DNA of 64,000 nt, taken from assembly GCA_000004985.1 (NCBI GenBank), contig GG738848.1; one strand, 5' to 3'. Shown here piece after piece: positions 35,820-53,754 of this stretch. The stretch comes from Naegleria gruberi (lineage: Eukaryota). The notes under the pieces are model-generated. The model saw only the letters and a program-made list of their open reading frames with translations. It had not been told where the DNA came from and did not search any database. The first letter of the stretch is position 1; each line of letters starts with the position of its first letter. A program made the translations under genes and the position numbers.

Positions 35820-38800
35820 ATGATGGACTCCACCACAACAATGAATGGAAGTGATGAAGGTAGTACAATAACAATGAATGGAACAATCCATCATCATCAA
35901 AATACCAATGGTATTACTTCTTCATCAACACTAGCAGCAACTAGTAGTGATAATAACAATCATGATACATTAACAAGCACTCTGAATGATGATGCTATTA
36001 TTGAATCCACTCCAATCAAACAAGAAAGCTTTGATGAAAACTTGATGAAACAAAATTCAACAACGAGGCAACTATTGACAAAACCATTGTCTCTGGTTGA
36101 TTATGAATACTTACTCAAATTGGAGACTGACCTTTCCAATCAAGAAGATAACCATCTAGATGAAGGATATTTAAAGGATGCTGCAGAAGATTACGACAAA
36201 TTGGGAGATTACTGTACAAGTTATTTTGAATCGAATAGTTTAGATTTGGAGGTACAAAAACAGTTAATAGCAGAGAATTCAATCGAAACTCTGACAGTAG
36301 AAGAATCTAAAACTTTGGAATCCAAGACAATTTCAAAAACCCTTGAGGAAACATTCAATAGTATTTGTGATGAATATCTTGATATTAATGTGTATGAAGA
36401 GATTTTATCTCAACAATACGAGGAGCAAAATGAAAAGAAGAGAAAGCCATGTGATGGTGTTGCCATTCATACTTGGAAGAATACATTAATAAGAGCAAAT
36501 CAACCAACCTTGTTGGTTTCTTCATCCATGAGAAAAAAGAAGAGAACAAAAAGGGATGAACAAGATAGAGGCAACTTTGAAGTTGCATTCACTGTTCCAA
36601 TGAATGGTTTCAATATTAATAAGGTGGTTGAAAATTTCCAGAATTGCATCAGTTCACACCATCATTTTATAGACAAGGCCACCAATTTGAGAAGTAAGAA
36701 GAGTTGGATTGAAAATATGAATCAAGAACAAACAGAAATCAAAACACAAGTTGAACAATTTTCTAAAGCTCTCATTCATGAAAAGTTGAACGAAACGTTG
36801 AACTCTCAAAAGAGTCACGATACTAGAGCAACAAATGGAACTTCAAAGCCATCTGTAAATATCAAACACTCCAAATTACATCAAATATCCAAAGATGTGG
36901 CTCAAAAGGTAAAGGAAAAACAAACCAAATCAGTAACAGAGCTGGATAATACTGTGGGAGGTATTTCATCTGTACTTTCTGATAGAATGAACTCTTTTTG
37001 GAAGAAACACGAAAAGGAAATATCAGAAAAGAGAAAGAGAAAAAAGAAGGAAGAGGAAGAGAAGGAGGAAGCTGTAAGACAACAAAGAAAGTTAAACTTT
37101 CTCCTCTCTCAAACAGAACTCTACTCTCACTTTATGTCCAAAAAATCAATCACAAGTGCTGTCACTTCTGATGATTCAACAGAAGAGAATGCAGCTCAAT
37201 CAGCTCTTCAGGCATCACAAAGACAAAAGCAATTCACTGAAGATTTTGATAAGGAAATTGAAAAGTACAGAACACAATCATCAATGGAGGATGAAAATAT
37301 AATTGAAGCAGGTGACGAGACCATGCAAGAGCCAAATATTTTCAATGGCTCACTTAAAAAGTACCAGTTGAAGGGTATGAAATGGTTGGTATCTTTGTAC
37401 GAGCAAGGTATCAATGGTATTTTAGCAGAGTAAGTATATTTAACATTGCACTCCTTACTAAGACTAATATTACAATTCTTTATTTTAATGAAAATTTTAA
37501 TAGTGAAATGGGTTTAGGTAAAACAATTCAAACCATTGCATTTATGGCCTATCTGGCTGAAAAGAAGAGTATTTGGGGACCAACCCTTATCATTACTCCT
37601 TCATCTACACTTCACAATTGGCAACAAGAATTTGAAAAATTCTGTCCAACACTTCGAGTATTACCATACTGGGGAGCATTGAAGGAGAGAAAATTGCTCA
37701 GAAAGTACTGGACCAATCCAGATAAGCTCTATCAAAAAGACTCACCATTCCATGTTGTTGTTTCCAGTTATGGTTTAATATTGGAAGATGAAAAGTATTT
37801 CAAAAAAGTCAAGTGGCAATATTTAATTCTAGACGAAGCCCATGCCATTAAATCGAGTAAGAGTTTGAGATGGAAAACACTGTTGAGCATGAAATGTAGA
37901 AATAGAATGCTTTTAACAGGTACTCCTATTCAAAATAACATGAAAGAGTTGTGGGCCTTGCTTCACTTTATCATGCCTTCAATATTCGATTCTCATGACG
38001 AGTTTAATGATTGGTTTTCGAAAGATATTGAATCTCATGCAACAAAGGAACAAGACACCAAACTTAACGAGCAACAATTGGCCAGATTACACATGATTCT
38101 CAAACCTTTCATGTTGAGAAGAGTCAAGAAGGATGTTGAAAGTGAAATGGCACCAAAAACTGAGGTTGTCCTCTCGTGTGGGTTGAGTTCTCTGCAGGGA
38201 GAAACTTACTACCGTATTAAGGACGATTTCAAAAAATCCTCCAAAGATAAGAAGAAGAAGATTGCTGTTGATTCAACAAGCAAGTCAGCACTGATGAATA
38301 TTGTAATGCAACTGAGAAAGGCATGTAACCATACTCATTTATTCAAAGAGTTTAGACAAGACACACTCTCTCCATTCCCATTCACCACGCCAATATCATT
38401 CTTGAAGCACATTCCAGGAAAAATTTATGATGAGTGTGAAAGATTGACCAATCCTATTCAATTCCACCTTCCTAAATTAATTTTTAGGGAGCTGACACCA
38501 CAAGGATCTCTAGAAATGGAATCTAACAGTTTGATGATTTCAAAGAGATTTGACTTTGTTCATGACATTTCATACATGATAGATACGTTTGGAACACTTC
38601 GTTACTTTTTCAAAGATAATTTTTGGAGATTGTACAAACTTAGAAATTTAAAGAATAGAATAGTCGAGTTCAGAGATAGAAAGGGTGGTTTTCAATTTTT
38701 AATGGATGAGTTACTAAGTGAACAATTGAACAACCACCTCGAGAGATGTAATTATCTTATTCAAAATATTGAAATTTTCTACAAATCCAATAGAGATCTC

Positions 38801-39610
38801 CTCAAGAAACTTGGCGAGTGTTGCATTGAAAAAGTTATTGCACCACCAATAGAAGTCAAATGTTCTGATAGAGGTTGTGATTATCAAATGACACCCATTA
38901 AGACTAGGTTCTTTAATAAGAAGTTCTTGTACAATAATCAATTTATTTATGATACCTTTAACACTTCCAGAATATCATTACCGAGTGTTAGCAAACTTAT
39001 TGCCGATTCTGGAAAACTCAAAGTTTTGGATCAATTACTTTCGAAATTGAAACAAGAAGGACATAGAGTTTTAATTTTCTGTCAAATGACAAAAATGATG
39101 GACCTTTTAGAAGAGTACATGTACAAGAGAAGATATACATTCTTTAGATTGGATGGTTCAACAGGAATTTCAGAAAGAAGAGACATGGTAGATGCCTTCC
39201 AAAATCAACGAGTGGATCCAGTTTTTGCATTCCTTCTCTCCACAAAAGCTGGAGGTCTAGGTATTACCTTAACAGCAGCAGATACAGTCATTTTCTATGA
39301 CAGTGATTGGAATCCAACATTGGATGCTCAAGCCATGGATCGTGTCCACAGAATTGGTCAAACTAAGCCAGTTACAATCTATCGTTTAATTACTAAAAAC
39401 TCTGTGGAAGAGAGAATCCTTGCCATTGCCAAGCAAAAGAGTACCATTCAAGAGACAGTCTACAAGGGTCAATTCAAAATGCAAGACAGCAATGAAGAAG
39501 AAGCAGCTGATGAACTTCTCGAAGATGAGGATGCAGTTGAGGCAGCAGTCGTAGTCGATGATGCAGGAGATTTGGATGAGAAGGAAATCATGTCCCTCAT
39601 TCTAGATTAA
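35820..39610 (+). CDS. ino80: INO80-type SNF2-family chromatin-remodelling ATPase, 2 exons
   Basis: Exons are 35820..37429 and 37504..39610, joined at ...INGILA-D-EMGLGKTIQ. The DBINO/HSA signature is RKLNFLLSQTELYSHFM. SNF2 N-lobe motifs are LKGMKWL, DEMGLGKT, LILDEAHAIKS and LLLTGTPIQNNMKELW. A long insertion of about 270 aa between the lobes is typical of INO80/SWR1. Helicase C-lobe motifs are RVLIFCQMTKMMD, FLLSTKAGGLGITL and DSDWNPTLDAQAMDRVHRIGQ. Confidence 0.9.
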
Positions 39611-43075: not shown

Positions 43076-43426
43076 ATGTCGCAAACAATTACTAAAACTC
43101 AAGTTCAATCCTTGCTCGGAAATTTACCAACCGATCTTGTTTTGCTTGATGTTCGTGAACATTCCGAATATACATCCACAGATTTACCTGCAATTCATAA
43201 TAGTGCTATTAATGTTCCTGTTGCTACTGTAAAGAATGTTTTCGAGTTGAGTGATGAAGAATTTGAGAAACAAGTTGGAAAGAAGAAACCATCAAAGAAT
43301 GATCAAATTGTTACCTATTGTAAATTAGGAGGAAGAGCTCAAAAGGCTGCTGATCAATTGGTTGAATTGGGTTATACAAATGTACATTGTTTTAAGGGAT
43401 CTGCCTCTGAATGGTATTCTAATTAA
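43076..43426 (+). CDS. Single-domain rhodanese-like sulfurtransferase (116 aa)
   Basis: VLLDVREHSEYTSTDLPAIHNSAINVP ... IVTYCKLGGRAQKAADQL ... GSASEW shows a typical rhodanese fold with an active-site Cys in the CKLGGR loop. Confidence 0.8.
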   Translation: MSQTITKTQVQSLLGNLPTDLVLLDVREHSEYTSTDLPAIHNSAINVPVATVKNVFELSDEEFEKQVGKKKPSKNDQIVTYCKLGGRAQKAADQLVELGYTNVHCFKGSASEWYSN

Positions 43427-43445
43427 ATTAACACGCACTTTTTAT

Positions 43446-46142
43446 TTAGGTCTTTTTCTTCTTCTTTACACCACCAGCATCAAATTGAATGAATTGTAAT
43501 TCATACCTAGGAATTCTGAAATGCATAAATGGCATTCCAGCATTAGCAGCTTTGTTATTTGTTGAATTGTTATTTTGGTTTCGTTTTCTCTTCTTTTCCA
43601 CTGGTTGAGTAGTAGTGGTAAGAGGAGGTGTTACAGATTTGGTTTCTGATTTGACATTCGTATCAGTAATGTTATCAACTTGTCCTGAGGCAACTATACT
43701 ACTGCTACTACCAAAATTGGACATTGGTTGTGCATTCATACTCACAAAAGATGAGGTCAAATTGGAATTAACATCATTATTTTGAACATAGTTCCAGAGT
43801 GGATCAATATTTGGTCCTACAAGGGAGTTGGCAATGTCATTATTAACTGAGAGTAAGGAGTGTGGTTGTTCATCAGGATTGACAAGATCGAAATTGAAAT
43901 CTCCATCATCAAAAAGAAGAGCAAATGAATCATCAACAGAAATTGACATTCTATGTGACGCCTTTCTAGCCATAGTGACTGGAGCAACGGATTTTCTTCT
44001 GTATGAGGAAGGTTGTAAGAGAATTGAGGTTTTGTGAATATTCTCAATTTCATCCAATTTTTGTTCTTGGACGAAAATAGAGAGCAAGTCACAAACAAAG
44101 CTCAAAATTTGTTCATCTCGCTCACTAAAGTTACCTGTATGCTTGTTCAAAACTTCTAAAACTCCTACAAATTGGTTTCCACTTCCAACTATTGGAGAAC
44201 AAATAACACTCTTTGTTGAAAATCCTGTTGTTTTGTCCACTTCTGGTGCAAATTTAGAATTACTCCTCACATCAGGTATATTCACACTCTTTCCACTTTG
44301 GAAGCATGATCCTGCAATCCCTCTGTCAGAAGGAATTCTAATTTCATCTTCGCCAATTGCAACTTGTGAAATGAGCTCGTCTGTTTGTCTATCGTACATG
44401 AATAATGTTGTTCTTTCTGCATGTAACATTCTGGTAATACATGAGATTATGTGTTGGAAGAAAACTCCAACCGAGTGCAAGTCCTGTCTTAGAACAGATA
44501 AACGTCTATAGACACAACCCTTCTCTGTTGTTGACTCTCCAATTTTAACATGGTTTTCTTTCTTTTGGGTATTGTTGTTATCTCCTCCATTTTCAGCACT
44601 ATTTTCAACAACTGGAGTTGTTGATGAGGATGCAACCTTTTCTTGAGGCTCAATTCTAAAGAATGAAGGATACATATCCATAGCATACCTGGTTGGGAAG
44701 GCAGCTGGTGGAGTATTCTCTTCACCCCACAATTCAAAGGTTTGGGTCAATTCGTGTCTGTCCTTTTCTTCTGTATTGGAGGTTGTTTCTGGGTCACTGC
44801 TGGATACTTCTTTTTGAGGTGGGAATTTGTAGGTGTTAAGAGTTTCTTCGTCCTTTTTAGGTGGTGGGAATGTAAAGGCAGTAAGGGATTGATAAATATC
44901 ACCCTTTGGAGTGCCATTAGCAGAACCATTTGTACTATTTGGTGTTGAAGGTTGAGAAGTGGAAGTAGCGGATGGTGGCAGCATTGAGCCCATCATTTGT
45001 TGTTGACTTTGAATTGCTCTTGAAATAATATCAGGATTGCTGGAAATGTTGATATTATTGTAGAGATCTAGCATTTTTAGAACTTGTTCATATTTAGACT
45101 TGGCAAAAAGTAAGCAATGTTCTGCAACAACTGCTGTTCCGTATTGTTGAGCTTTGGCCCATTGTTGAAAAACGTTATCCACAGAAAGAGTTCCAATAAT
45201 AAATTCTTGGCATTGACTGAGAAGTGCACTCAGCTGATAGAATTTAGCTGCTTGATAAAGATCCCAAATCTTGTCAGATCTTAGAATGGTACAGTCAGTA
45301 TAAACAAATTCCAAAATATTATAGAAAATATCAGCAGATGCATCTTGAATCTCAATTTCCAAAATGGATGTATTGGAACATTTGACGAGAATTAGTTGAT
45401 TGAAATAATTACTCCTAGCACATAAAATTAATTTGTGAGCATAAAACTTCTTTCCTTGAATAATAAACGTCACATCACTTAAAATTGGATTATTAAAGAA
45501 TTGTTTGATGCTTGATCCCATGGTGTTACTCTTACTAATAAATGTTTGAGCTGTGGACTCTGTTATGGAACTTTGCCCCAATCCAGCCTGTCCTGCATTG
45601 TTAGTGGAACTAGAGGATGTAGAAACTGGTGATTGTGTAGGTTGTTGTATCTGCAAGATGCTTGAAGAGTTGGGAGAAATTTGTTGCAAGTTATTGTTAT
45701 TTGAAAGTTGATTTACGACCATATTCGAAAATTGATTATTCATGGGTGGTGAGGATACTTGGATTACTTGTTGATTTGAATTTTGTTGATTTAACAATTG
45801 TTGTAGCATGTTTTGTTGTTGATTTGTATTGTTTTGTTGTTGGTTTTGTTGAATAAGATTCATCAGGTTGTTGAAAATACCCATTGCTTGCTGATTATTA
45901 TTGTTAGAGGGTGATGGTTGGTTGTTTTGCATTTGTTGTTGTTGTTGGAAGAGATTGATTATACTATTCATGTTGTTATTACTATTACTATTGTTCTTCA
46001 TCATGTTGAGAAGCGAATTGATCTCATTCATTGAATTATTACCATTATTATTATTGTTGTTATTGTTGCCATTGTTATTATTCATCATCATAACTAGAGC
46101 ATTCAATAACTGTCCCGAATTTGCCTGATTATTCGGTAACAT
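43446..46142 (-). CDS. BTB/POZ + GAF domain protein with a long poly-N/Q N-terminus (898 aa)
   Basis: The N-terminal ~200 aa are N/Q-rich ([25 protein letters not shown]). The BTB domain is LSDVTFIIQGKKFYAHKLILCARSNYFNQLIL...DIFYNILEFVYTDC. The GAF domain is FMYDRQTDELISQVAIGEDEIRIPSDRGIAGSCFQSGKSVNIPDV...VICSPIVGSGNQFVGVLEVLNK. Confidence 0.7.
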   Translation of the reverse strand: MLPNNQANSGQLLNALVMMMNNNNGNNNNNNNNGNNSMNEINSLLNMMKNNSNSNNNMNSIINLFQQQQQMQNNQPSPSNNNNQQAMGIFNNLMNLIQQNQQQNNTNQQQNMLQQLLNQQNSNQQVIQVSSPPMNNQFSNMVVNQLSNNNNLQQISPNSSSILQIQQPTQSPVSTSSSSTNNAGQAGLGQSSITESTAQTFISKSNTMGSSIKQFFNNPILSDVTFIIQGKKFYAHKLILCARSNYFNQLILVKCSNTSILEIEIQDASADIFYNILEFVYTDCTILRSDKIWDLYQAAKFYQLSALLSQCQEFIIGTLSVDNVFQQWAKAQQYGTAVVAEHCLLFAKSKYEQVLKMLDLYNNINISSNPDIISRAIQSQQQMMGSMLPPSATSTSQPSTPNSTNGSANGTPKGDIYQSLTAFTFPPPKKDEETLNTYKFPPQKEVSSSDPETTSNTEEKDRHELTQTFELWGEENTPPAAFPTRYAMDMYPSFFRIEPQEKVASSSTTPVVENSAENGGDNNNTQKKENHVKIGESTTEKGCVYRRLSVLRQDLHSVGVFFQHIISCITRMLHAERTTLFMYDRQTDELISQVAIGEDEIRIPSDRGIAGSCFQSGKSVNIPDVRSNSKFAPEVDKTTGFSTKSVICSPIVGSGNQFVGVLEVLNKHTGNFSERDEQILSFVCDLLSIFVQEQKLDEIENIHKTSILLQPSSYRRKSVAPVTMARKASHRMSISVDDSFALLFDDGDFNFDLVNPDEQPHSLLSVNNDIANSLVGPNIDPLWNYVQNNDVNSNLTSSFVSMNAQPMSNFGSSSSIVASGQVDNITDTNVKSETKSVTPPLTTTTQPVEKKRKRNQNNNSTNNKAANAGMPFMHFRIPRYELQFIQFDAGGVKKKKKT

Positions 46143-47111
46143 TTTCGACTGTTTTTATGTTCTCTCTATTCAGTGGCACACAGATAACGAAAATTATGAT
46201 CACCCAAATTACTTTCGGAGATGATAGACTCTATGAAAATCTCTGCGCAAACTATACAAATCCAATCTATTGACTTGTACACGAAGAACTCTATAATCAG
46301 TTGTGATATTCTATGTATCCTCGCCTCGTTTTCGGTATTTTTCTTTGCACTGTAGTTATTTGATGTTTGCTGAGAGTTTTGTGATGCTAGGTTGATGACA
46401 CGATTTTATTGTGATGATGATGAAGTGAGAGAGCGGAATAATTATTTGAAGTAATAAGACAACGACGTTGAATCTAGAACTGTTTCTCTTTTTCCAGGAG
46501 CAGCAGCACAATGGTGAAATTATACTTCTTGACAATAAACAGAAGGATCAAGAAGAACGAATGGATCTCTTGAGATTTTTGTTTTGAGAATATGGTGTGA
46601 GGTCGAACATGATACCATTGCAATAATTTTCATGTGTTTTAGCAAAGAATTTTTATCTGGAAATGGGAGTGGTTAAACTTTTAAGTAGTGTGCGCTGCAA
46701 TACTTTACAACATTGCACAATACTGAGAGAGTAGTTTGTTGTTTGTGTCTTTGTAACAACCGTAGTTGAGGGAACAAATTTAATTAAGGCAATTTTCAGA
46801 ATAAGGTGAAGTCAACTTGAAAATCTCCTTTTTAGAGGATTACAAAATAATCACATGCTATTTGAACTTTTTCGAGGTCAATAAGATACATTCTCTATTA
46901 CTAAATACAAGTTTTTTAAGCTTATTAATATGCATTGATTGGAAATCAGTTTTGGAATTGTTCAAATTGTATTCTTAATAATACTATTTGAAATACTTAC
47001 AATATTCATGTTCAAAAATTTTACAAAATTTAAATTTTAAACTTTAAAAAAAATGCAACAACTGCCTACTCTTTTAATTCATCACTCGAAAAGAAATTAA
47101 TAATTTGCAAA

Positions 47112-48182
47112 ATGAAAAATATTGATAGTGATTGTATGGTATTTGTTTTGGAATTTATGAGTGTGGCGGATCATGTTTATCAATTATCGAGGGTGTGTTC
47201 CGATTGGAGAATAAATTCAATCAAGTTTATTGTGAGGTATTTGGACAAGAGGTATGCAATGTTGGGAGATTTAGTGAAACAATTCGAAACTTGTTTTGGG
47301 TGTTCAGTATCGGGAAGGAAAATGAGAAAGTTTCTGATGAGATGCCATGTCAGAGACTTGGCAGAATATTTACTTGATTCATATGAAGGAGTCCACGAAA
47401 ATCAACAGTTCACCATTCTTTGGGTTAAGAGTGAAATGGAAATTCTGTGTAATTACTTGAAAATTTCTAATAGGATGAAATCAGATGGCAACCAAACTAA
47501 ATCTACTGGGTTTTTCACAAAGATTGGAAAATTATTCTCTAAAAAAACACATGACAAGGCATCTATTCAATCACCCAACAAAGAGGTAGAATCTAATATG
47601 AAACAATTTGATTATATCAATGTGGAGTCTTCTATTCAGGGAAATTTGAATGATTTAGAACGATACTATCTTGTCAATGCTATTATGGGAATTGAGTTTA
47701 TACCAGAGTATGATGAGGAGGGAAACTTGGATGAGAGTGTATTTTCGAGAGCGTGTCTTTATGGAAGCACTGATATTGTGTTGGAATTGAAAGATTGGTT
47801 CAAGATTCATTTGAATATTAGATATCCTAAACTCACAAGTGACAATTTGGAACCTAAAAGTTTGCTATCTCACTCACACCTTCTAATGATATCAGGAATA
47901 TCAATGCAGACAAACAGAAATAACTTGGAATTAATTAAGGAGCTCGACTTGAATAAGAAACTATTTAAAGATGATTCATGTAAGGTTTCCAATTACGAGC
48001 AAGTGGTTGTTGGTGTCAAGGTTAGTGATCCTCTCTTAAACTCACAACAAATGATTCAAACAGCATTTAGTTTTGATGGATTGCAATATTTCGAGTTTAA
48101 CGTCAGCAATCCACATCAAATGAGAGTATTATATTGGTATTCAATATTAATGTCATTCATTCTAAGTTTTTTAAATAGTTAA
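47112..48182 (+). CDS. Hypothetical protein with an F-box-like N-terminus
   Basis: VFVLEFMSVADHVYQLSRVCSDWRINSIKFIVRYL is F-box-like. The remainder is unassigned. Confidence 0.35.
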   Translation: MKNIDSDCMVFVLEFMSVADHVYQLSRVCSDWRINSIKFIVRYLDKRYAMLGDLVKQFETCFGCSVSGRKMRKFLMRCHVRDLAEYLLDSYEGVHENQQFTILWVKSEMEILCNYLKISNRMKSDGNQTKSTGFFTKIGKLFSKKTHDKASIQSPNKEVESNMKQFDYINVESSIQGNLNDLERYYLVNAIMGIEFIPEYDEEGNLDESVFSRACLYGSTDIVLELKDWFKIHLNIRYPKLTSDNLEPKSLLSHSHLLMISGISMQTNRNNLELIKELDLNKKLFKDDSCKVSNYEQVVVGVKVSDPLLNSQQMIQTAFSFDGLQYFEFNVSNPHQMRVLYWYSILMSFILSFLNS

Positions 48183-48348: not shown

Positions 48349-49185
48349 CTAAAAACCTTTAAAATAAAGTATTCCTATATTTTTACATACCTTAACCCTA
48401 CATTTTTTCAATTTTAAAAATTCCAGATTTGTCAATTTGCTTAAACATGTAGCTCCTGTAATGTGTAGGAATCCATTTTCTATTTCTAATCGTTTTAAAT
48501 TAATTAATTCAGAAATTGACATTAGTGCATGATCTCCAATACAATGATTTTCAATTATCAATGAAGTCAATTGTGTTATTTTTTTAAATTCTAAAAAAAT
48601 TGATTTTTTAGGATAAAATATTTCTCTGCCTGATGAATTGATAAAGCAAAGCTCCCTCAAATGGATTAATTTGCTTATTTGATCCAAATGATGGATCTCA
48701 ATATCGTGTACAATTAATTTTCTTAATTTGGGTAAAATTGCCAAATCATGTAAATCTTCCATAATGTAACTCAATTCCAATTCTTCCAAATTTATCAATT
48801 TTTGTAAAGGACTCAACGAAGAGGTAATTTTAGTAAATTTTAAATATTTCAAATTGACAAATTGTGAAATAATTTCCAAAATAAAACTACCATCACAAAT
48901 GAGATATTGTAAATTGATGAAAATTTCTACATGTTCTTGTTTTAGAAAATTGTAAATATTTCGGATGTGTAAATTGTGAGCATTCCGAAACTTTTTAAAA
49001 GCACTAGTAAAATAATTCCAAATATTTTCATCACGAATTAAACTTGTGCGAATGAGGGAAAGTTTAGTTGTGAATAAACATCGCAACCACTTTTCACAAA
49101 CCAAAGAACACACTTGAATTAGAAACTTTGGTTCATGAAATACAAAAATTTGATGAGAAATAATTTCATCCGGTAATTGTTCCAT
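48349..49185 (-). CDS. F-box-like / LRR protein
   Basis: The N-terminus LPDEIISHQIFVFHEPKFLIQVCSLVCEKWL is followed by LRR units (LEELELSYI, LRELCFINSSG, LKRLEIENGFL). Confidence 0.5.
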   Translation of the reverse strand: MEQLPDEIISHQIFVFHEPKFLIQVCSLVCEKWLRCLFTTKLSLIRTSLIRDENIWNYFTSAFKKFRNAHNLHIRNIYNFLKQEHVEIFINLQYLICDGSFILEIISQFVNLKYLKFTKITSSLSPLQKLINLEELELSYIMEDLHDLAILPKLRKLIVHDIEIHHLDQISKLIHLRELCFINSSGREIFYPKKSIFLEFKKITQLTSLIIENHCIGDHALMSISELINLKRLEIENGFLHITGATCLSKLTNLEFLKLKKCRVKVCKNIGILYFKGF

Positions 49186-49914: not shown

Positions 49915-52900
49915 TTAGAAGCCCATCAAGTGTGAACCGTTTCTATCACCTCTAAAGTTAGCTCGAAAATATCTGTCTATAGCATCTGAATTCCAACCAC
50001 CCATGGCCTTGATGGTAGCATCAGGGATACCCATAATGGCAGCCTCCGTGGCTCCACCAATTCTCAACGAATGAGAAGAGTACTTTCCTGGATCAGCTTC
50101 GATCCATGTTGCAACCTGAGTTAAGATGTAAGAAATCTCAACTGTATTTAAAGAAAAACCACCGGTAAACAAAAACTTTCCTTTGTCTCTTGAATCAAGT
50201 AATTTTTGAAGCCATTTCATCGGACACAATTCAGAACCTGTCGCTTCGATACATGATTTTCTTCCTTTCTTATCATTCTTCACTTTTCTCACTGTTATAC
50301 TAAACCCCACCACCGGGAACTTCACAATCTTTAGATCCTCTATTAATAAACCACCCAATTCTGAACCCCTAAACATTGACCTTATACCAAAAATCATTAG
50401 GCACGTGTATAGAACATATGATTTTTCTTTAACAAACTGTCTACCAACAATTACCCATTTACAAATAAATTCTATTCTCCATGGATCTCTTTCTCTCTTT
50501 GTCGCCACTGTAGCCAGATTGCACATACCCTTTATCACCATCTGTACTCTAATGTTTACTGTAATATCCTCCCAACCAATCCTTTTACAAAAATGCTTAA
50601 TAGCATACATTGCACTTCGACAGTTATTACCAGATGGTGTTTTGATGAACATAAAGGTGAGAAATCTGACTACCATTTCACTAGTTGCTGGTGGAACCTC
50701 TTTTTGCTTAATAAGAAAGTTGATAAATCTATTCCAATAACTTTCATAGTTGTCTGTTGTGGATATTTCAATTGAACATGACATTAATGTATCTGCAATC
50801 TTACTCAAATCGTGACTCTGCAGTCTACTAATGTTGCTCTTATGGTCCAAAATCCTTTGCATGGTTCTAGGTTCCCTCCTTGGGAGGCTCTGAAATGATT
50901 TCCATCTAGATTCATAAAACGAATTTGATAACTTTCTATTATCTTCCACCACCACCTCTTTTTCCATACTGGATGAACCAATACCATAACTGCTTTGGAC
51001 TCTAGACAATGTTGTAATACTCTCCCTATTAGATTGAAAGGTACGCAGCACCAATTTACCACTGGCTCTGTCCAAAGGTGAGAGAATGAATCTGCTTTCT
51101 CTCTTCTGCTGGTCTTCTTTCTCACTGTATATGGTTTTGTCTTGAAGTTGTAATGAGAGGCGAATCTGTCCCATCCTATTGATACATCCAGCTGCTTCTC
51201 TACTAATTGAAAAGCTTCTTTGGTAATCTCCCAATCTGTTGGGTCTTTCTCTTGAATATTTCTGCTCAGATTGTCCGCTACTTGATTCTCCTCCGAAGGT
51301 AACCATTCTAACGAAAGCAAACGGATGTCGTGTTCGAAAATAATGCGCCATATTAGTTGAATCAATTGATTCATAATGGGAGACTTTGCTCTTCCCTTCA
51401 TTATACAATATAGAGCCACCTTTGAATCCGTGTAAACAATTAAATTCTTTCCTTTCAAAAGATGTGACCATTCTTTTAGGGCAAGATAGATCGCTCTCAC
51501 TTCTAATACATTGATATGTTCTTGGCATTGTTCTCCCTTCCAAAAACCTTGTAGTTTCAAATTTCTTTCTTTGTGGAAAACTCCCCATCCCAATCTCGAT
51601 GCATCTGTCCAAAAGTATTCCACTAAGCTTGGATATTGGAACACCTTTCCATTCCAATGGTCCAAGTTGTATAAAATCCATTGGAGATTGAAAATTACAT
51701 CTCGGTCTCTGATGCGAAATTCGGAATCCCAGCCTCCAATATTCACCTAGTCCACCACTAAAGAATAAATCGGATTCAACATCACCCTTGCAGGTTGGAA
51801 ACAGTCTACATAAGCAATTATAATACCAGTCATCCGAAACAGTTCTCTGGATGTTACTTTCTGATCTTGGTGATACTTGGCAAGGGCTATGGAAATACGA
51901 GTTCGAATTTTCTCTAATGTAGCTTCTGTCATAATTAATTTCCTGCTGACCAGATCTATCTTGATCCCAAGTAGTTGAAAGACTTTTAATGGAGTTAACT
52001 GACTCTTCTTCTTTTCGATAACTACACCTAATTCTGCACATACCATTGTAACGAATGTATTGTTCCTTAATGCAGATAAATAGGAACCAAAATGTAATAA
52101 ACCAACATCGTCTAAGTAATTGGATGGTGTTAAAGAATCTGATCTCAAAAAATTGATAAATACATTCATCATTTGTGTAAAAAAGTATGGAGATCCATTC
52201 CATCCAAATGGAAGGACTGTGAATTGCAAAACCTCTTCCTCTACTTGAATGGCAAAGTATGGTCTGTCCTTCCTTTTTACCTTCATCTGGTGATATCCGG
52301 ATTTCATATCGAACATAGAACCCCAAATTTGATCTGTCTTGTTCATTGGTACGTGTTCTAAAAACTTCTTCAACGTGTTGTACTTGAATTTGGGGATAGA
52401 ACAAAACCGATTGAGCGGTCTTAAATCGATAATCAGTCGGTATGATTCTTTCTTTGGGACCAGCCGATACTTGGCTATCACTTTTGGATTGTGACAAGGT
52501 TCCAAAGCTCCAATCTCTTTCAAAATACTCACTTCTCTTTTTAACCATTCTCTCTCTTCCAAAGACCATTCTTCTAAATTTACCTTTCCATAGTATGGAA
52601 CAAATTCTTCGTTTGTTTGAACTGATACACCCTCTTTCAACATATCCACTATTTCCATTGAAGCTCCTTTCTTCCTCCAGGTATCCCATTTGTTCGAAAT
52701 GGAATGAATAGCCTCTCTTCTTTCTTCTACCTCTCGGAAAAAACAAATCATCTACATACTCTGAACCCTCTCTTTTATTTCTCTTAGGGCAATCTTTGAT
52801 CAGATGGTTTGGGTCATTACAAATAAAGCATTTCTTCACTTTCTTCATACCATTAGCACTACCAAACATATTCACCTTTTCCTCTGCCTTATCTTTCTTA

Positions 52901-53754
52901 TCATAAATCTTGGCATTTGCATAGGATTTAACAAAACTTGTCTTACCCTTCTCCTTATGGTCGAACTTGAGTAGTTTTTCTGCCATCTTAAGCTTATCCA
53001 TGTTCTCACGCCATAATGGATTGCTTTCTATAAACGCCAATTTAGATGCTAATTCTGGATTGACGGCTTGAACTTGTAATTGGAAAGCTCTTGTCTCTAA
53101 GTTCGCAACCATTTTCTTCGTATCATCTATTTCTGGGAAAAGATTAGCTATCTTCATTGTAAAAGCAGAATCCTTTCTCAAATTCTCATATTCTGTAAGA
53201 AGACTAGAATTAGTTGTTGGCAATGGTGTGTAGATTGTATCTGTGTATTTTCTAACTTCAGATTCAGCTGCCAATTGTTGTAAAACACGTTCTGTTTCAG
53301 CTTTTTCCAGCTTCATCTGTGCAATCTTAGCATCGATTATTTGTTCATAAGCCTTAAATCTCTTCACATCTTCTTCTGATACCTCTTCTCTCTTTCTCTT
53401 GTTAGAGCCATCTTCAACTTCTACAACTGACTCACCATCGTCCTCTTCGTCATCATCATCGTCATCATCATCTCTTGCTTCCTTGAATGCATGTTTAATC
53501 TCATCCTTTAACTTCTCTACATCTTTACTCTTGCCACTTGTGCAAACCGTAAACTTGTCTGCACCAATAAAGTCAACAATTGCCTTTGCCAATACCTTCT
53601 TTTGGCCAGAAACTTCAATTTCCAAGGTACCTATAATCTTTTGTATCAAGGCCTTTGTTAACTTTCCAACAGCACTTTTATCATGCTTCTTAAGTATGTC
53701 AGTGATGGTTTCTTGAATTGTTGATTGACTCATAATGTGTTGCAATTTTTTCAA
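49915..53754 (-). CDS. Retroelement long ORF (1279 aa): gag (N-terminal ~335 aa) ... overprinted linker ... tyrosine recombinase (C-terminal ~300-400 aa)
   Basis: One continuous frame. The N-terminus MSQSTIQETITDILKKH has a poly-Asp tract and a CCHC knuckle. The C-terminus has the tyrosine-recombinase R..HxxR..Y motifs. The central ~600 codons overlap the RT/RNase H frame and show no domain of their own. Confidence 0.75.
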   Translation of the reverse strand: MKKLQHIMSQSTIQETITDILKKHDKSAVGKLTKALIQKIIGTLEIEVSGQKKVLAKAIVDFIGADKFTVCTSGKSKDVEKLKDEIKHAFKEARDDDDDDDDEEDDGESVVEVEDGSNKRKREEVSEEDVKRFKAYEQIIDAKIAQMKLEKAETERVLQQLAAESEVRKYTDTIYTPLPTTNSSLLTEYENLRKDSAFTMKIANLFPEIDDTKKMVANLETRAFQLQVQAVNPELASKLAFIESNPLWRENMDKLKMAEKLLKFDHKEKGKTSFVKSYANAKIYDKKDKAEEKVNMFGSANGMKKVKKCFICNDPNHLIKDCPKRNKREGSEYVDDLFFPRGRRKKRGYSFHFEQMGYLEEERSFNGNSGYVERGCISSNKRRICSILWKGKFRRMVFGRERMVKKRSEYFERDWSFGTLSQSKSDSQVSAGPKERIIPTDYRFKTAQSVLFYPQIQVQHVEEVFRTRTNEQDRSNLGFYVRYEIRISPDEGKKEGQTILCHSSRGRGFAIHSPSIWMEWISILFYTNDECIYQFFEIRFFNTIQLLRRCWFITFWFLFICIKEQYIRYNGMCRIRCSYRKEEESVNSIKSLSTTWDQDRSGQQEINYDRSYIRENSNSYFHSPCQVSPRSESNIQRTVSDDWYYNCLCRLFPTCKGDVESDLFFSGGLGEYWRLGFRISHQRPRCNFQSPMDFIQLGPLEWKGVPISKLSGILLDRCIEIGMGSFPQRKKFETTRFLEGRTMPRTYQCIRSESDLSCPKRMVTSFERKEFNCLHGFKGGSILYNEGKSKVSHYESIDSTNMAHYFRTRHPFAFVRMVTFGGESSSGQSEQKYSRERPNRLGDYQRSFSISREAAGCINRMGQIRLSLQLQDKTIYSEKEDQQKRESRFILSPLDRASGKLVLRTFQSNRESITTLSRVQSSYGIGSSSMEKEVVVEDNRKLSNSFYESRWKSFQSLPRREPRTMQRILDHKSNISRLQSHDLSKIADTLMSCSIEISTTDNYESYWNRFINFLIKQKEVPPATSEMVVRFLTFMFIKTPSGNNCRSAMYAIKHFCKRIGWEDITVNIRVQMVIKGMCNLATVATKRERDPWRIEFICKWVIVGRQFVKEKSYVLYTCLMIFGIRSMFRGSELGGLLIEDLKIVKFPVVGFSITVRKVKNDKKGRKSCIEATGSELCPMKWLQKLLDSRDKGKFLFTGGFSLNTVEISYILTQVATWIEADPGKYSSHSLRIGGATEAAIMGIPDATIKAMGGWNSDAIDRYFRANFRGDRNGSHLMGF
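50805..51746 (-). CDS. Retroelement RNase H (+ downstream domain) ORF, same frame as RT, separated from it by one TAG
   Basis: FWTDASRLGWGVF...LEVRAIYLALKEW...LIVYTDSKVALYCI are RNase H motifs. There is no ATG; it is listed with a GTG start. Confidence 0.75.
   Translation of the reverse strand: MNIGGWDSEFRIRDRDVIFNLQWILYNLDHWNGKVFQYPSLVEYFWTDASRLGWGVFHKERNLKLQGFWKGEQCQEHINVLEVRAIYLALKEWSHLLKGKNLIVYTDSKVALYCIMKGRAKSPIMNQLIQLIWRIIFEHDIRLLSLEWLPSEENQVADNLSRNIQEKDPTDWEITKEAFQLVEKQLDVSIGWDRFASHYNFKTKPYTVRKKTSRREKADSFSHLWTEPVVNWCCVPFNLIGRVLQHCLESKAVMVLVHPVWKKRWWWKIIESYQIRFMNLDGNHFRASQGGNLEPCKGFWTIRATLVDCRVTI
51747..52751 (-). CDS. Retroelement reverse transcriptase ORF, in the +1 frame relative to gag
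   Basis: LIIDLRPLNRF, KSGYHQMKV, LPFGWNGSPYFF and YLDDVGLL are RT motifs 1-5. The ORF ends with TAG at 51747..51749. Confidence 0.8.
   Translation of the reverse strand: MICFFREVEERREAIHSISNKWDTWRKKGASMEIVDMLKEGVSVQTNEEFVPYYGKVNLEEWSLEEREWLKREVSILKEIGALEPCHNPKVIAKYRLVPKKESYRLIIDLRPLNRFCSIPKFKYNTLKKFLEHVPMNKTDQIWGSMFDMKSGYHQMKVKRKDRPYFAIQVEEEVLQFTVLPFGWNGSPYFFTQMMNVFINFLRSDSLTPSNYLDDVGLLHFGSYLSALRNNTFVTMVCAELGVVIEKKKSQLTPLKVFQLLGIKIDLVSRKLIMTEATLEKIRTRISIALAKYHQDQKVTSRELFRMTGIIIAYVDCFQPARVMLNPIYSLVVD

What the first reader, a model, noticed from the sequence alone, without database searches (positions are those of the whole stretch)
43446..46142. BTB/POZ and GAF domains combined in one poly-N/Q protein
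The ORF joins a BTB domain (usually a CUL3 adaptor or dimerisation module) with a cGMP/small-ligand-binding GAF domain, behind a prion-like N/Q-rich N-terminus of about 200 aa. BTB+GAF is an uncommon architecture. It would fit a ligand-regulated substrate adaptor or transcriptional regulator. The ORF-free, less AT-rich DNA immediately upstream (46143..46820) may hold its 5'UTR or an upstream exon.
Basis: partly seen in the sequence, partly recalled or inferred. Interest (0 to 1): 0.55.

Follow-up and report, generated by a model that had tools for sequence, protein, structure and literature searches.

The report
Conserved BTB–GAF protein of Naegleria
A real single-exon Naegleria gruberi gene joins a cullin-adaptor-type BTB domain to a cyclic-nucleotide-type GAF sensor domain; the combination recurs in several distant protist lineages, is unstudied and mis-named in databases, and may be a new kind of cAMP/cGMP effector.

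Summary
The ORF at 43446..46142 (-) encodes 898 aa with three parts:
- an N/Q-rich N-terminus (aa 1-198, 47% N+Q);
- a BTB domain (Pfam E=1.7e-25) followed by a 3-box/BACK-like helical extension;
- a GAF domain (AF2 pLDDT >90).

The window is Naegleria gruberi. The protein is identical to XP_002682074.1, which is wrongly named "adenylate/guanylate cyclase"; it has no cyclase domain.

The GAF is of the cyclic-nucleotide-binding type. It has a complete NKFDE motif and 10 of 13 PDE2A GAF-B pocket positions. The BTB part matches SPOP and KBTBD2/4, which are CUL3 adaptors.

Collinear single-gene orthologs exist in N. lovaniensis, N. fowleri, Willaertia and Acrasis. BTB–GAF relatives occur in a ciliate, in Diphylleia and in metagenomes.

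Family-specific motifs are strongly conserved:
- two RRxS kinase sites flanking the GAF;
- a W..PPAAFPT..FPxFF motif;
- a KKRKR nuclear localisation signal;
- an unexplained C-terminal PFMHFR motif shared across supergroups.

My best reading is a nuclear, cyclic-nucleotide- and kinase-regulated BTB scaffold, probably a CUL3 adaptor. This is inferred, not shown. I found no literature on it. The evidence gives no support for an upstream exon. Novelty: new variant of a known kind. Interest is about 0.5.

The parts
43446..46142 (-). Complete single-exon gene for the 898-aa BTB–GAF protein (stop codon included). It equals XP_002682074.1 / D2V1L3.
   Evidence: Collinear orthologs.
45549..46142 (-). 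N/Q-rich low-complexity N-terminus, aa 1-198 (N 28.8%, Q 18.2%). It is specific to the Naegleria/Willaertia lineage and predicted disordered or weakly helical.
45192..45506 (-). BTB/POZ domain, aa 213-317.
   Evidence: Pfam E=1.7e-25. AF2 pLDDT 85-94. Foldseek matches SPOP BTB with TM 0.71-0.80 normalised to the target.
44979..45191 (-). 3-box/BACK-like helical extension after the BTB, aa 318-388 (four helices).
   Evidence: phmmer alignments run through SPOP residues 193-355 and KBTBD4 residues 36-176. AF2 helices are confident. Foldseek matches SPOP BTB/3-box (3htm) and KBTBD2-CUL3 complexes. A Pfam BACK hit occurs in the Muranothrix relative.
44655..44747 (-). Conserved linear motif TQTFELW-x5-PPAAFPT-x6-(F/Y)PxFF, aa 466-496, inside a disordered linker. 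Function unknown.
   Evidence: Invariant columns. Family table. No Pfam hit.
44496..44507 (-). RRLS (aa 546-549), a basophilic-kinase (PKA/PKG-type) consensus site just N-terminal of the GAF. It is [RK][RK]xS[VIL] in every clade-A member that covers this position.
   Evidence: The kinase assignment is inference from the R-R-x-S consensus.
44049..44477 (-). GAF domain, aa 556-698, of the cyclic-nucleotide-binding subtype: NKFDE motif at N666/K667/F672/D676/E677, and pocket residues T579, I609, A610, F631, V635, D636, T639, F641, T643, E663.
43989..44000 (-). RRKS (aa 715-718) within the invariant stretch LLxPSxYRRxS. This is a second basophilic-kinase consensus site, C-terminal of the GAF. A third site, RKAS (aa 726-729), is found only in Naegleria.
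43878..43934 (-). Acidic/hydrophobic motif DDSFALLFDDGDFNFDLVN, aa 737-755. It looks like an acidic activation domain; that reading is inference only.
   Evidence: Conserved. No Pfam hit.
43581..43595 (-). KKRKR (aa 850-854), a classical monopartite NLS-like basic cluster. It is invariant across the seven full-length orthologs.
   Evidence: The NLS function is inferred.
43479..43535 (-). C-terminal signature motif MPFMHFRIPRYELQFIQFD, aa 870-888. Its core P-Φ-Φ-H-F-R is shared with the ciliate, Diphylleia and metagenome BTB–GAF proteins. Function unknown.
   Evidence: No Pfam or PDB match.
43452..43466 (-). Poly-lysine tail KKKKK, aa 893-897.
46143..47111 (.). Intergenic region of 969 nt between this gene and the divergent gene at 47112..48182. 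It is the presumed promoter and 5'UTR. I found no ORF over 59 aa, no repeat, no Rfam match above threshold and no conservation with the other Naegleria species.

Best explanation
The gene encodes a modular signalling scaffold.

Shown:
- A BTB domain with a 3-box/BACK-like extension of the kind found in CUL3 substrate adaptors such as SPOP and KBTBD2/4.
- A long disordered linker, then a single GAF domain of the cyclic-nucleotide-binding subtype.
- Invariant short motifs, including two RRxS sites that bracket the GAF, a KKRKR basic cluster and a family-defining C-terminal PFMHFR motif.

Inferred:
- The BTB part makes the protein a dimer and recruits CUL3.
- The GAF binds cAMP or cGMP. cAMP is slightly favoured, because the PDE2A cGMP-selectivity aspartate D439 is Ile here, which resembles the cAMP-binding CyaB2.
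- PKA/PKG-type kinases phosphorylate the flanking RRxS sites.
- Together these inputs change how the conserved linear motifs and the C-terminus engage a partner or substrate, most likely in the nucleus.

In short, it is a cyclic-nucleotide-gated BTB adaptor. That would make it an effector arm of the very large cyclase-based signalling system of Naegleria.
For: BTB part:
- BTB domain: Pfam E=1.7e-25.
- The best single-stretch alignment is to KBTBD4, 63.6 bits, and covers BTB plus the start of BACK. SPOP aligns over residues 193-355.
- AF2 pLDDT is 85-94 for aa 210-388.
- Foldseek matches SPOP BTB/3-box (3htm, TM 0.80 normalised to the target) and KBTBD2-CUL3-Rbx1 complexes.

GAF part:
- AF2 pLDDT is >90.
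- Apart from the HD-GYP protein 4mcw (ligand not known to me), the top sequence and structure hits, down to Foldseek rank 39, are cNMP-type GAFs: PDE2A GAF-B, PDE5, PDE6, PDE10A, CyaB2 and Lcd1-cAMP.
- NKx4Fx3DE is complete, and 10 of 13 PDE2A GAF-B contact positions are identical or conservative.

Single conserved gene: Naegleria x3, Willaertia and Acrasis.

Same architecture elsewhere: Muranothrix (ciliate), Diphylleia (CRuMs) and metagenomic eukaryotes, all ending in a basic cluster followed by PΦΦHFR.

Conserved sites: RRLS and RRKS are conserved in clade A, and KKRKR is invariant in the seven orthologs.

Against: - No experiment exists, and I found no literature.
- The CUL3-contact φ-x-E motif reads C255-S256-N257 here and C-K-D in some relatives, so it is not canonical.
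- The presence of CUL3 in Naegleria was not tested here.
- The cNMP-pocket segment (aa 624-643) is deleted or degenerate in Acrasis, P0013, P0209, P0210, P0072 and P0085, although the rest of the protein stays conserved. The family's core function may therefore not need the ligand.
- Three PDE2A contact positions differ: F438 to A, D439 to I, Y481 to A.
- AF2 shows no docking of any motif onto either domain (pTM 0.41), so no gating mechanism can be seen.
- There is one GAF, not the tandem GAF pair of PDEs and CyaB.
Confidence: 0.4

Rival explanations
1. It is a nuclear transcription or chromatin regulator. The BTB serves only for dimerisation and co-regulator recruitment, as in BTB-ZF proteins, not for CUL3. 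The Q/N-rich N-terminus and the acidic FALLFDDGDFNFDL motif would act as activation regions. The C-terminal basic-plus-PFMHFR motif would bind chromatin or a DNA-binding partner, and the GAF would tune activity.
For: - The highest whole-sequence PDB scores for the BTB are the ZBTB17/BCL6 chimeras, and the α3-β4 loop (KCSN) resembles BCL6 'KCNLS'.
- KKRKR is invariant, and there is an acidic/hydrophobic motif.
- The N-terminus is Q/N-rich.
- The φ-x-E motif is non-canonical.
Against: - No DNA-binding domain of any kind was detected.
- BTB-ZF proteins lack the 3-box/BACK extension that this protein has.
- The chimera scores are sums over two BTB copies. The best single-domain match is KBTBD4.
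- The Q/N tract is not conserved in the family.
Confidence: 0.25
2. The GAF does not sense cyclic nucleotides. It is a structural or dimerisation module, or it binds another small molecule, and regulation comes only from phosphorylation of the flanking RRxS sites.
For: - The pocket segment is lost in six clade-A relatives while the NKFDE motif, the RRxS sites and the C-terminal motif persist.
- The top structural hit, 4mcw, is an HD-GYP protein whose GAF ligand is not known to me.
- Many GAF domains bind no nucleotide (general knowledge).
Against: In Naegleria/Willaertia and in all four clade-B proteins the pocket segment FxxxVDxxTG(F/Y)xT, the IAG motif and the NKFDE motif are intact. Apart from 4mcw, the nearest solved relatives are cNMP-type GAFs, several solved with bound cNMP.
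Confidence: 0.2
3. It is an adenylate/guanylate cyclase, as the NCBI and UniProt name says.
For: Only the database name. The nearest non-family homologs are bacterial PAS-GAF-cyclases, which share only the GAF.
Against: No Guanylate_cyc (PF00211) match even at E<=1. No cyclase hit in PDB outside the GAF region. Everything outside the BTB and GAF is predicted disordered.
Confidence: 0.01
4. The ORF is a gene-model artefact that fuses two neighbouring genes, one BTB gene and one GAF gene.
For: A linker of about 170 aa that is disordered and poorly conserved separates the two domains.
Against: - The reading frame is continuous with no stop.
- Five named species and several metagenome contigs show the same collinear order.
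- The linker itself carries invariant motifs.
- Compact relatives of 457-487 aa have both domains with short linkers.
Confidence: 0.02

Closest known systems
Cyclic-nucleotide-binding GAF domains of PDE2A (GAF-B), PDE5/6/10/11 and the cyanobacterial cyclases CyaB1/CyaB2
   Same: - Same fold: Foldseek E about 1e-12 to 1e-10.
- 30-34% identity.
- Complete NKFDE motif.
- 10 of 13 PDE2A GAF-B ligand-contact positions are kept.
- The position of the cGMP-selectivity Asp (D439) is hydrophobic (Ile here), resembling the AA of the cAMP-binding CyaB2.
   Different: - There is a single GAF rather than a tandem GAF-A/GAF-B pair.
- The output is not an enzyme (PDE or cyclase) but a BTB scaffold.
- The GAF is bracketed by RRxS sites.
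- Ligand binding is untested.
CUL3 substrate adaptors of the BTB/3-box/BACK type (SPOP, KBTBD2, KBTBD4, KLHL proteins)
   Same: BTB core plus a following helical 3-box/BACK-like extension. Sequence alignment to KBTBD4 covers residues 36-176 and to SPOP residues 193-355. Structural matches include KBTBD2 in complex with CUL3-Rbx1.
   Different: - There is no Kelch or MATH substrate-binding domain. Instead there is a disordered region with short linear motifs, a GAF and a C-terminal motif.
- The φ-x-E CUL3-contact motif is C-S-N.
- CUL3 binding is untested.
KEAP1 and other small-molecule-responsive cullin adaptors (KEAP1 with electrophiles, TIR1 with auxin, KBTBD4 with UM171)
   Same: The concept is shared: a cullin adaptor whose activity depends on a small molecule. 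This is own knowledge for KEAP1 and TIR1. The KBTBD4-UM171 structure appears among the hits.
   Different: In those cases the ligand acts on the substrate-binding domain or as a molecular glue. Here a dedicated second-messenger sensor domain (GAF) is fused to the adaptor. I do not know of any such cNMP-gated adaptor and found none in the searched literature.
Drosophila GAGA factor ('GAF', Trl), a BTB/POZ protein
   Same: Only the words: 'BTB' and 'GAF' occur together in that literature.
   Different: GAGA factor has no GAF domain, and this protein has no zinc finger. The resemblance is a naming coincidence that contaminates literature searches.

Membership tests
BTB/POZ domain (PF00651) | Profile match above the curated threshold | tested here: met
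   89.8 bits against a cutoff of 20.5, E=1.7e-25, aa 213-317.
BTB/POZ domain (PF00651) | BTB fold (three-stranded sheet plus helices A1-A5) | tested here: met
   AF2 pLDDT 85-94. Foldseek matches SPOP BTB (4j8z, 3htm) with TM 0.71-0.80 normalised to the target.
CUL3 substrate adaptor (BTB/3-box/BACK type) | 3-box/BACK-like helical pair directly after the BTB | tested here: met
   Helices at aa 324-386. Alignments run through the SPOP 3-box/BACK region and the KBTBD4 BACK start. Pfam BACK itself was not hit in this protein, but it was hit in the Muranothrix relative.
CUL3 substrate adaptor (BTB/3-box/BACK type) | φ-x-E motif in the α3-β4 loop that contacts CUL3 | tested here: inconclusive
   The position that aligns to KBTBD4 L-K-E reads C255-S256-N257. 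It is C-x-N in Heterolobosea and C-K-D in P0210, P0085 and P0198.
CUL3 substrate adaptor (BTB/3-box/BACK type) | Physical binding to CUL3 and delivery of a substrate | not testable with these tools
   This needs a pull-down or complex prediction with N. gruberi CUL3. The presence of CUL3 in the genome was not checked here.
GAF domain (PF13185/PF01590) | Profile match above threshold and GAF fold | tested here: met
   GAF_2 scores 36.3 bits against a cutoff of 28.6. AF2 pLDDT is >90. Foldseek E is 1e-13 to 1e-10 against GAF structures.
Cyclic-nucleotide-binding GAF subfamily (PDE2/5/6/10/11, CyaB1/2) | NKFDE signature (N-K-x(n)-F-x3-D-E) | tested here: met
   N666 K667 F672 D676 E677. The motif is conserved in nearly all family members.
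Cyclic-nucleotide-binding GAF subfamily (PDE2/5/6/10/11, CyaB1/2) | Ligand-contact residues of the pocket | tested here: met
   10 of 13 PDE2A GAF-B positions are identical or conservative: T579, I609, A610, F631, V635, D636, T639, F641, T643, E663. The differences are at F438, D439 and Y481. The list of contact residues comes from my own knowledge of the 1MC0 structure and was checked against the printed alignment.
Cyclic-nucleotide-binding GAF subfamily (PDE2/5/6/10/11, CyaB1/2) | Tandem GAF-A/GAF-B arrangement upstream of a catalytic domain | tested here: not met
   There is one GAF and no catalytic domain. Clade-B relatives have two GAFs, each preceded by BTB domains.
Cyclic-nucleotide-binding GAF subfamily (PDE2/5/6/10/11, CyaB1/2) | Measured cAMP/cGMP binding | not testable with these tools
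   This needs a biochemical assay.
Class III adenylate/guanylate cyclase (the database name of this protein) | Catalytic domain PF00211 | tested here: not met
   No hit at E<=1. PDB hits to cyclases cover only their GAF domains.
Prion-like Q/N-rich domain | Strong Q/N enrichment over at least 60 aa | tested here: met
   aa 1-198 is N 28.8% plus Q 18.2%.
Prion-like Q/N-rich domain | Conservation or self-templating aggregation | tested here: not met
   The tract is absent from Acrasis, P0209, P0210, P0072 and clade B, and is not alignable between Naegleria species. Aggregation cannot be tested here.
BTB-zinc-finger transcription factors | C-terminal C2H2 zinc fingers or another DNA-binding domain | tested here: not met
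   No such Pfam hit in the full protein or in its C-terminal segments.

The most novel reading that the evidence does not exclude
BTB–GAF proteins are a previously unrecognised and ancient class of eukaryotic cyclic-nucleotide effector, alongside PKA/PKG, Epac, CNG/HCN channels, POPDC and GAF-PDEs. In this reading, cAMP or cGMP binding to the GAF gates a CUL3-type BTB adaptor or nuclear scaffold, and so couples second-messenger levels directly to protein turnover or gene regulation. The family is marked by a unique C-terminal PΦΦHFR motif shared by Discoba, ciliates and CRuMs.
Probability: 0.3. Interest if true: 0.75.

Novelty: new variant of a known kind. Interest (0 to 1): 0.5.

Why it matters
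Naegleria encodes more than a hundred adenylate/guanylate cyclases (own knowledge: Fritz-Laylin et al. 2010), but few known downstream effectors.

A GAF sensor wired to a BTB/3-box scaffold would link cyclic nucleotides directly to ubiquitin-dependent turnover or nuclear regulation. I found no description of such a link in the searched literature.

The family spans at least three eukaryotic supergroups. It carries very strongly conserved short motifs of unknown function. These give concrete handles for experiments: peptide pull-downs, point mutants and phospho-site mutants. An ortholog exists in the pathogen N. fowleri.

On the practical side, the public annotation 'adenylate/guanylate cyclase' is wrong and should be corrected.

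Tried and rejected
1. Exact-sequence look-up of the encoding contig for the window protein found nothing on record. The source organism was identified instead from the identical NCBI protein.
2. A profile search with the C-terminal motif alone (A5; a first attempt was too short) returned one irrelevant 45-aa hit. It did not even recover the family, so it says nothing about whether the motif occurs in other architectures.
3. A third word-indexed search, with the 16-sequence family alignment, scored only 8000 candidates and added no new named taxa.
4. AFDB Foldseek was unavailable.
5. Pfam and PDB searches of the linker, the post-GAF region and the C-terminus at E<=10 gave no credible hit.
6. 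The first AF2 run, with a GAF-heavy alignment, left the BTB at pLDDT 50-68. The family-only alignment fixed this. Neither model docks any motif onto a domain.
7. Upstream region: no ORF over 59 aa, no repeats, only sub-threshold Rfam matches, and no alignment signal with the other Naegleria species. I therefore dropped the upstream-exon idea.
8. Literature searches for the accessions, for BTB plus GAF domain, and for cullin plus cyclic nucleotide found nothing relevant. The 'BTB-GAF' hits concern Drosophila GAGA factor.
9. I considered horizontal transfer of the GAF from bacteria. The identity to bacterial PAS-GAF-cyclases is 47%, against 39% to the Muranothrix GAF. I left this open, because a single-domain identity comparison is too weak to decide it.
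Full report
**Observation.**
The window holds an uninterrupted minus-strand ORF at 43446..46142 that encodes 898 aa.
- Pfam finds BTB/POZ at aa 213-317 (E=1.7e-25) and GAF_2 at aa 560-691 (E=7.5e-9). Both are above the curated cutoffs, and nothing else is found, notably no cyclase domain.
- The first 198 residues are 28.8% Asn and 18.2% Gln.
- The DNA at 46143..46820 has no ORF above 59 aa. Its GC is 0.35, against 0.227 for the next 291 nt.

**Identity of the locus.**
- An identical 898-aa protein is XP_002682074.1 / EFC49330.1 / UniProt D2V1L3 of Naegleria gruberi NEG-M, so the window is N. gruberi nuclear DNA.
- The public name is 'adenylate/guanylate cyclase'. This is a misnomer, probably inherited from the nearest non-family hits. 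Those are bacterial PAS-GAF-cyclases that share only the GAF, at 40-47% identity.

**One gene, conserved.**
- Collinear orthologs exist in N. lovaniensis (914 aa, 70% identity over the BTB-to-GAF query), N. fowleri (940 aa, 69%) and an ENA contig (844 aa), all.
- They also exist in Willaertia magna (785 aa) and Acrasis kona (770 aa, 40%).
- In N. lovaniensis and N. fowleri the genes are single uninterrupted coding sequences.
- The fused-gene-model objection is therefore answered.

**Start codon and upstream region.**
- The MLP start is shared with N. fowleri and P0004.
- In N. gruberi an in-frame TAA lies five codons upstream of the ATG.
- The other Naegleria species have only about 385 nt of upstream DNA, and it does not align with N. 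gruberi.
- No repeat and no Rfam family above threshold lies there.
- An upstream exon is not supported. A long 5'UTR within the 969-nt divergent intergenic region remains possible but cannot be tested here.

**The GAF domain.**
- AlphaFold2 models aa 556-698 at pLDDT >90.
- Apart from the HD-GYP protein 4mcw, the best Foldseek and phmmer matches (down to Foldseek rank 39) are cyclic-nucleotide-type GAFs: PDE2A GAF-B, PDE5, PDE6, PDE10A, CyaB2 and Lcd1 with cAMP. GAFs with other ligands (fRMsr, PtsP, NifA-like, phytochrome-type) score much lower.
- I mapped the PDE2A GAF-B contact residues onto the printed alignment. The residue list is my own knowledge of 1MC0, and its numbering is consistent with the alignment.
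  - Kept or conservative: S424 to T579, I458/A459 to I609/A610, F480 to F631, V484 to V635, D485 to D636, T488 to T639, F490 to F641, T492 to T643, E512 to E663.
  - Changed: F438 to A595, D439 to I596, Y481 to A632.
- The NKFDE signature is complete: N666, K667, F672, D676, E677.
- The loss of the cGMP-selectivity Asp, together with the CyaB2-like 'VA(I/A)GE' context, leans towards cAMP. This is inference.
- A caveat: the pocket segment (aa 624-643) is deleted or degenerate in Acrasis, P0013, P0209, P0210, P0072 and P0085. It is intact in Naegleria, Willaertia and all clade-B proteins.

**The BTB domain.**
- With a family-only alignment, AF2 models aa 210-388 at pLDDT 85-94. The model is a BTB core followed by four helices.
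- The best single-stretch sequence alignment is to KBTBD4 residues 36-176, which covers the BTB and the start of BACK. SPOP aligns across residues 193-355, which covers its BTB, 3-box and C-terminal helices.
- Foldseek places it with SPOP BTB/3-box (3htm, TM 0.80 normalised to the target), KBTBD4 and KBTBD2 in CUL3-Rbx1 complexes.
- BTB-ZF proteins lack this extension (established knowledge), so the domain is of the CUL3-adaptor kind.
- The φ-x-E loop that contacts CUL3 is C-S-N here and C-K-D in some relatives, so this criterion is inconclusive.

**Family-specific motifs.**
Outside the two domains the protein is predicted disordered. It nevertheless carries stretches that are invariant or nearly so:
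- TQTFELW-x5-PPAAFPT-x6-(F/Y)PxFF at aa 466-496.
- RRLS at aa 546-549, seven residues before the first GAF helix.
- LLxPSxYRRxS with RRKS at aa 715-718.
- An acidic/hydrophobic DDSFALLFDDGDFNFDL at aa 737-755.
- KKRKR at aa 850-854.
- MPFMHFRIPRYELQFIQFD at aa 870-888, followed by a lysine tail.

None of them matches Pfam or PDB. The two RRxS sites fit the PKA/PKG consensus, and KKRKR fits a classical NLS; both assignments are inference. cAMP-pathway components, including PkaR and the phosphodiesterase RegA, are reported as conserved in N. gruberi (PMC4399386). N. gruberi also has light-activated adenylyl cyclases (PMC5608697).

**Distribution.**
I searched 1.84 billion representative proteins exhaustively with a family profile. 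I then inspected the hits. Two groups emerge.
- Clade A carries all the motifs above. It comprises the Heterolobosea plus unnamed metagenome and Logan proteins (P0013, P0209, P0210, P0072, P0085, P0198). Some of these are compact, at 457-487 aa.
- Clade B has BTB(-BTB)-GAF-BTB-BACK-GAF or BTB…GAF architectures. It comprises Muranothrix gubernata (Ciliophora), Diphylleia rotans (CRuMs), P0066 and P0115.
- All four clade-B proteins end with a basic cluster followed by (F/Y)PVFHFR, which is the same P-Φ-Φ-H-F-R core as clade A.
- By a rough hand estimate, such a match within the last 30 residues has a chance of about 5e-6, so the motif is homologous. This is inference.
- The taxon assignments were checked. 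The two transcriptome-derived assignments could in principle be contaminants.
The architecture is rare but phylogenetically wide.

**Mechanism.**
- Shown: the domain types, their subtypes, the motif conservation and the single-gene structure.
- Inferred: BTB-mediated dimerisation and CUL3 recruitment.
- Inferred: cAMP/cGMP binding by the GAF, and phosphorylation of the bracketing RRxS sites.
- Inferred: nuclear import through KKRKR, and partner or substrate engagement by the W/PPAAFPT and C-terminal motifs.
- I commit to a cyclic-nucleotide- and kinase-regulated BTB adaptor, probably working with CUL3 in the nucleus, at about 0.4 confidence.
- The main rivals are a CUL3-independent nuclear transcription or chromatin regulator (0.25) and a GAF that does not sense cNMP (0.2).
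- The database reading as a cyclase and the fused-gene artefact are effectively excluded.

**Comparison with the known, and novelty.**
- The parts are well known. The cNMP-type GAF resembles those of PDE2/5/6/10 and CyaB1/2. The BTB/3-box resembles those of SPOP and KBTBD proteins.
- The combination is not known. A second-messenger sensor domain is fused to a cullin-adaptor-type scaffold rather than to an enzyme.
- I found no paper on it. The 'BTB-GAF' literature concerns Drosophila GAGA factor, which is a naming coincidence.
- I rate it a new variant of a known kind, with interest about 0.5. It would rise to about 0.75 if ligand-gated adaptor function were shown.

Noticed in passing
window 43446-46142 (-): The public name of this protein (XP_002682074.1 / D2V1L3, 'adenylate/guanylate cyclase') is wrong. 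There is no cyclase domain at E<=1. The name was probably transferred from bacterial PAS-GAF-cyclases, which share only the GAF.
   Followed up: yes
window 43076-43426 (+) and 43427-43445: A convergent 116-aa rhodanese-domain gene (PF00581, E=4e-14) ends 19 nt from the stop codon of the BTB–GAF gene. The two 3' ends must therefore abut or overlap.
   Followed up: partly
window 49915-53754 (-): A 1279-aa ORF has a zinc-knuckle (zf-CCHC) match and a tyrosine-recombinase (Phage_integrase) match, both just below Pfam cutoffs. Two further long ORFs are nested in other frames at 50805-51746 and 51747-52751. This may be a DIRS/Crypton-like mobile element.
   Followed up: no
window 47112-48182 (+) and 48349-49185 (-): The divergent upstream neighbour (356 aa) has no Pfam match. 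The next gene is a weak F-box-like plus LRR protein.
   Followed up: partly
window 35820-37433 (+) and 37382-39610 (+): A DBINO-domain ORF and an SNF2/Helicase_C ORF overlap by about 50 nt in different frames. They look like one INO80-type gene interrupted by an intron or frameshift.
   Followed up: no
L001 1-3805 and L002 1-3413: In N. lovaniensis and N. fowleri a (PAS-)guanylate-cyclase gene lies two genes upstream of the BTB–GAF ortholog. Synteny with N. gruberi is otherwise lost, apart from a DAO gene nearby in N. fowleri. With more than 100 cyclase genes per genome, this proximity may be chance.
   Followed up: no
P0218 (Logan assembly, N. fowleri-like), aa 1-79: A variant gene call adds a 79-aa N-terminal extension from an upstream in-frame ATG. 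In N. gruberi an in-frame TAA five codons upstream of the ATG rules out the equivalent extension.
   Followed up: partly
P0007 (N. fowleri FDP41_009443, partial, 307 aa): A second, partial N. fowleri protein on another contig is about 75% identical to the BTB part of the family. It may be a paralog fragment or an assembly duplicate.
   Followed up: no
window 43956-43967 (-), aa 726-729: A third basophilic site, RKAS, follows the conserved RRKS. It is present only in Naegleria, with RKLS in Willaertia.
   Followed up: partly
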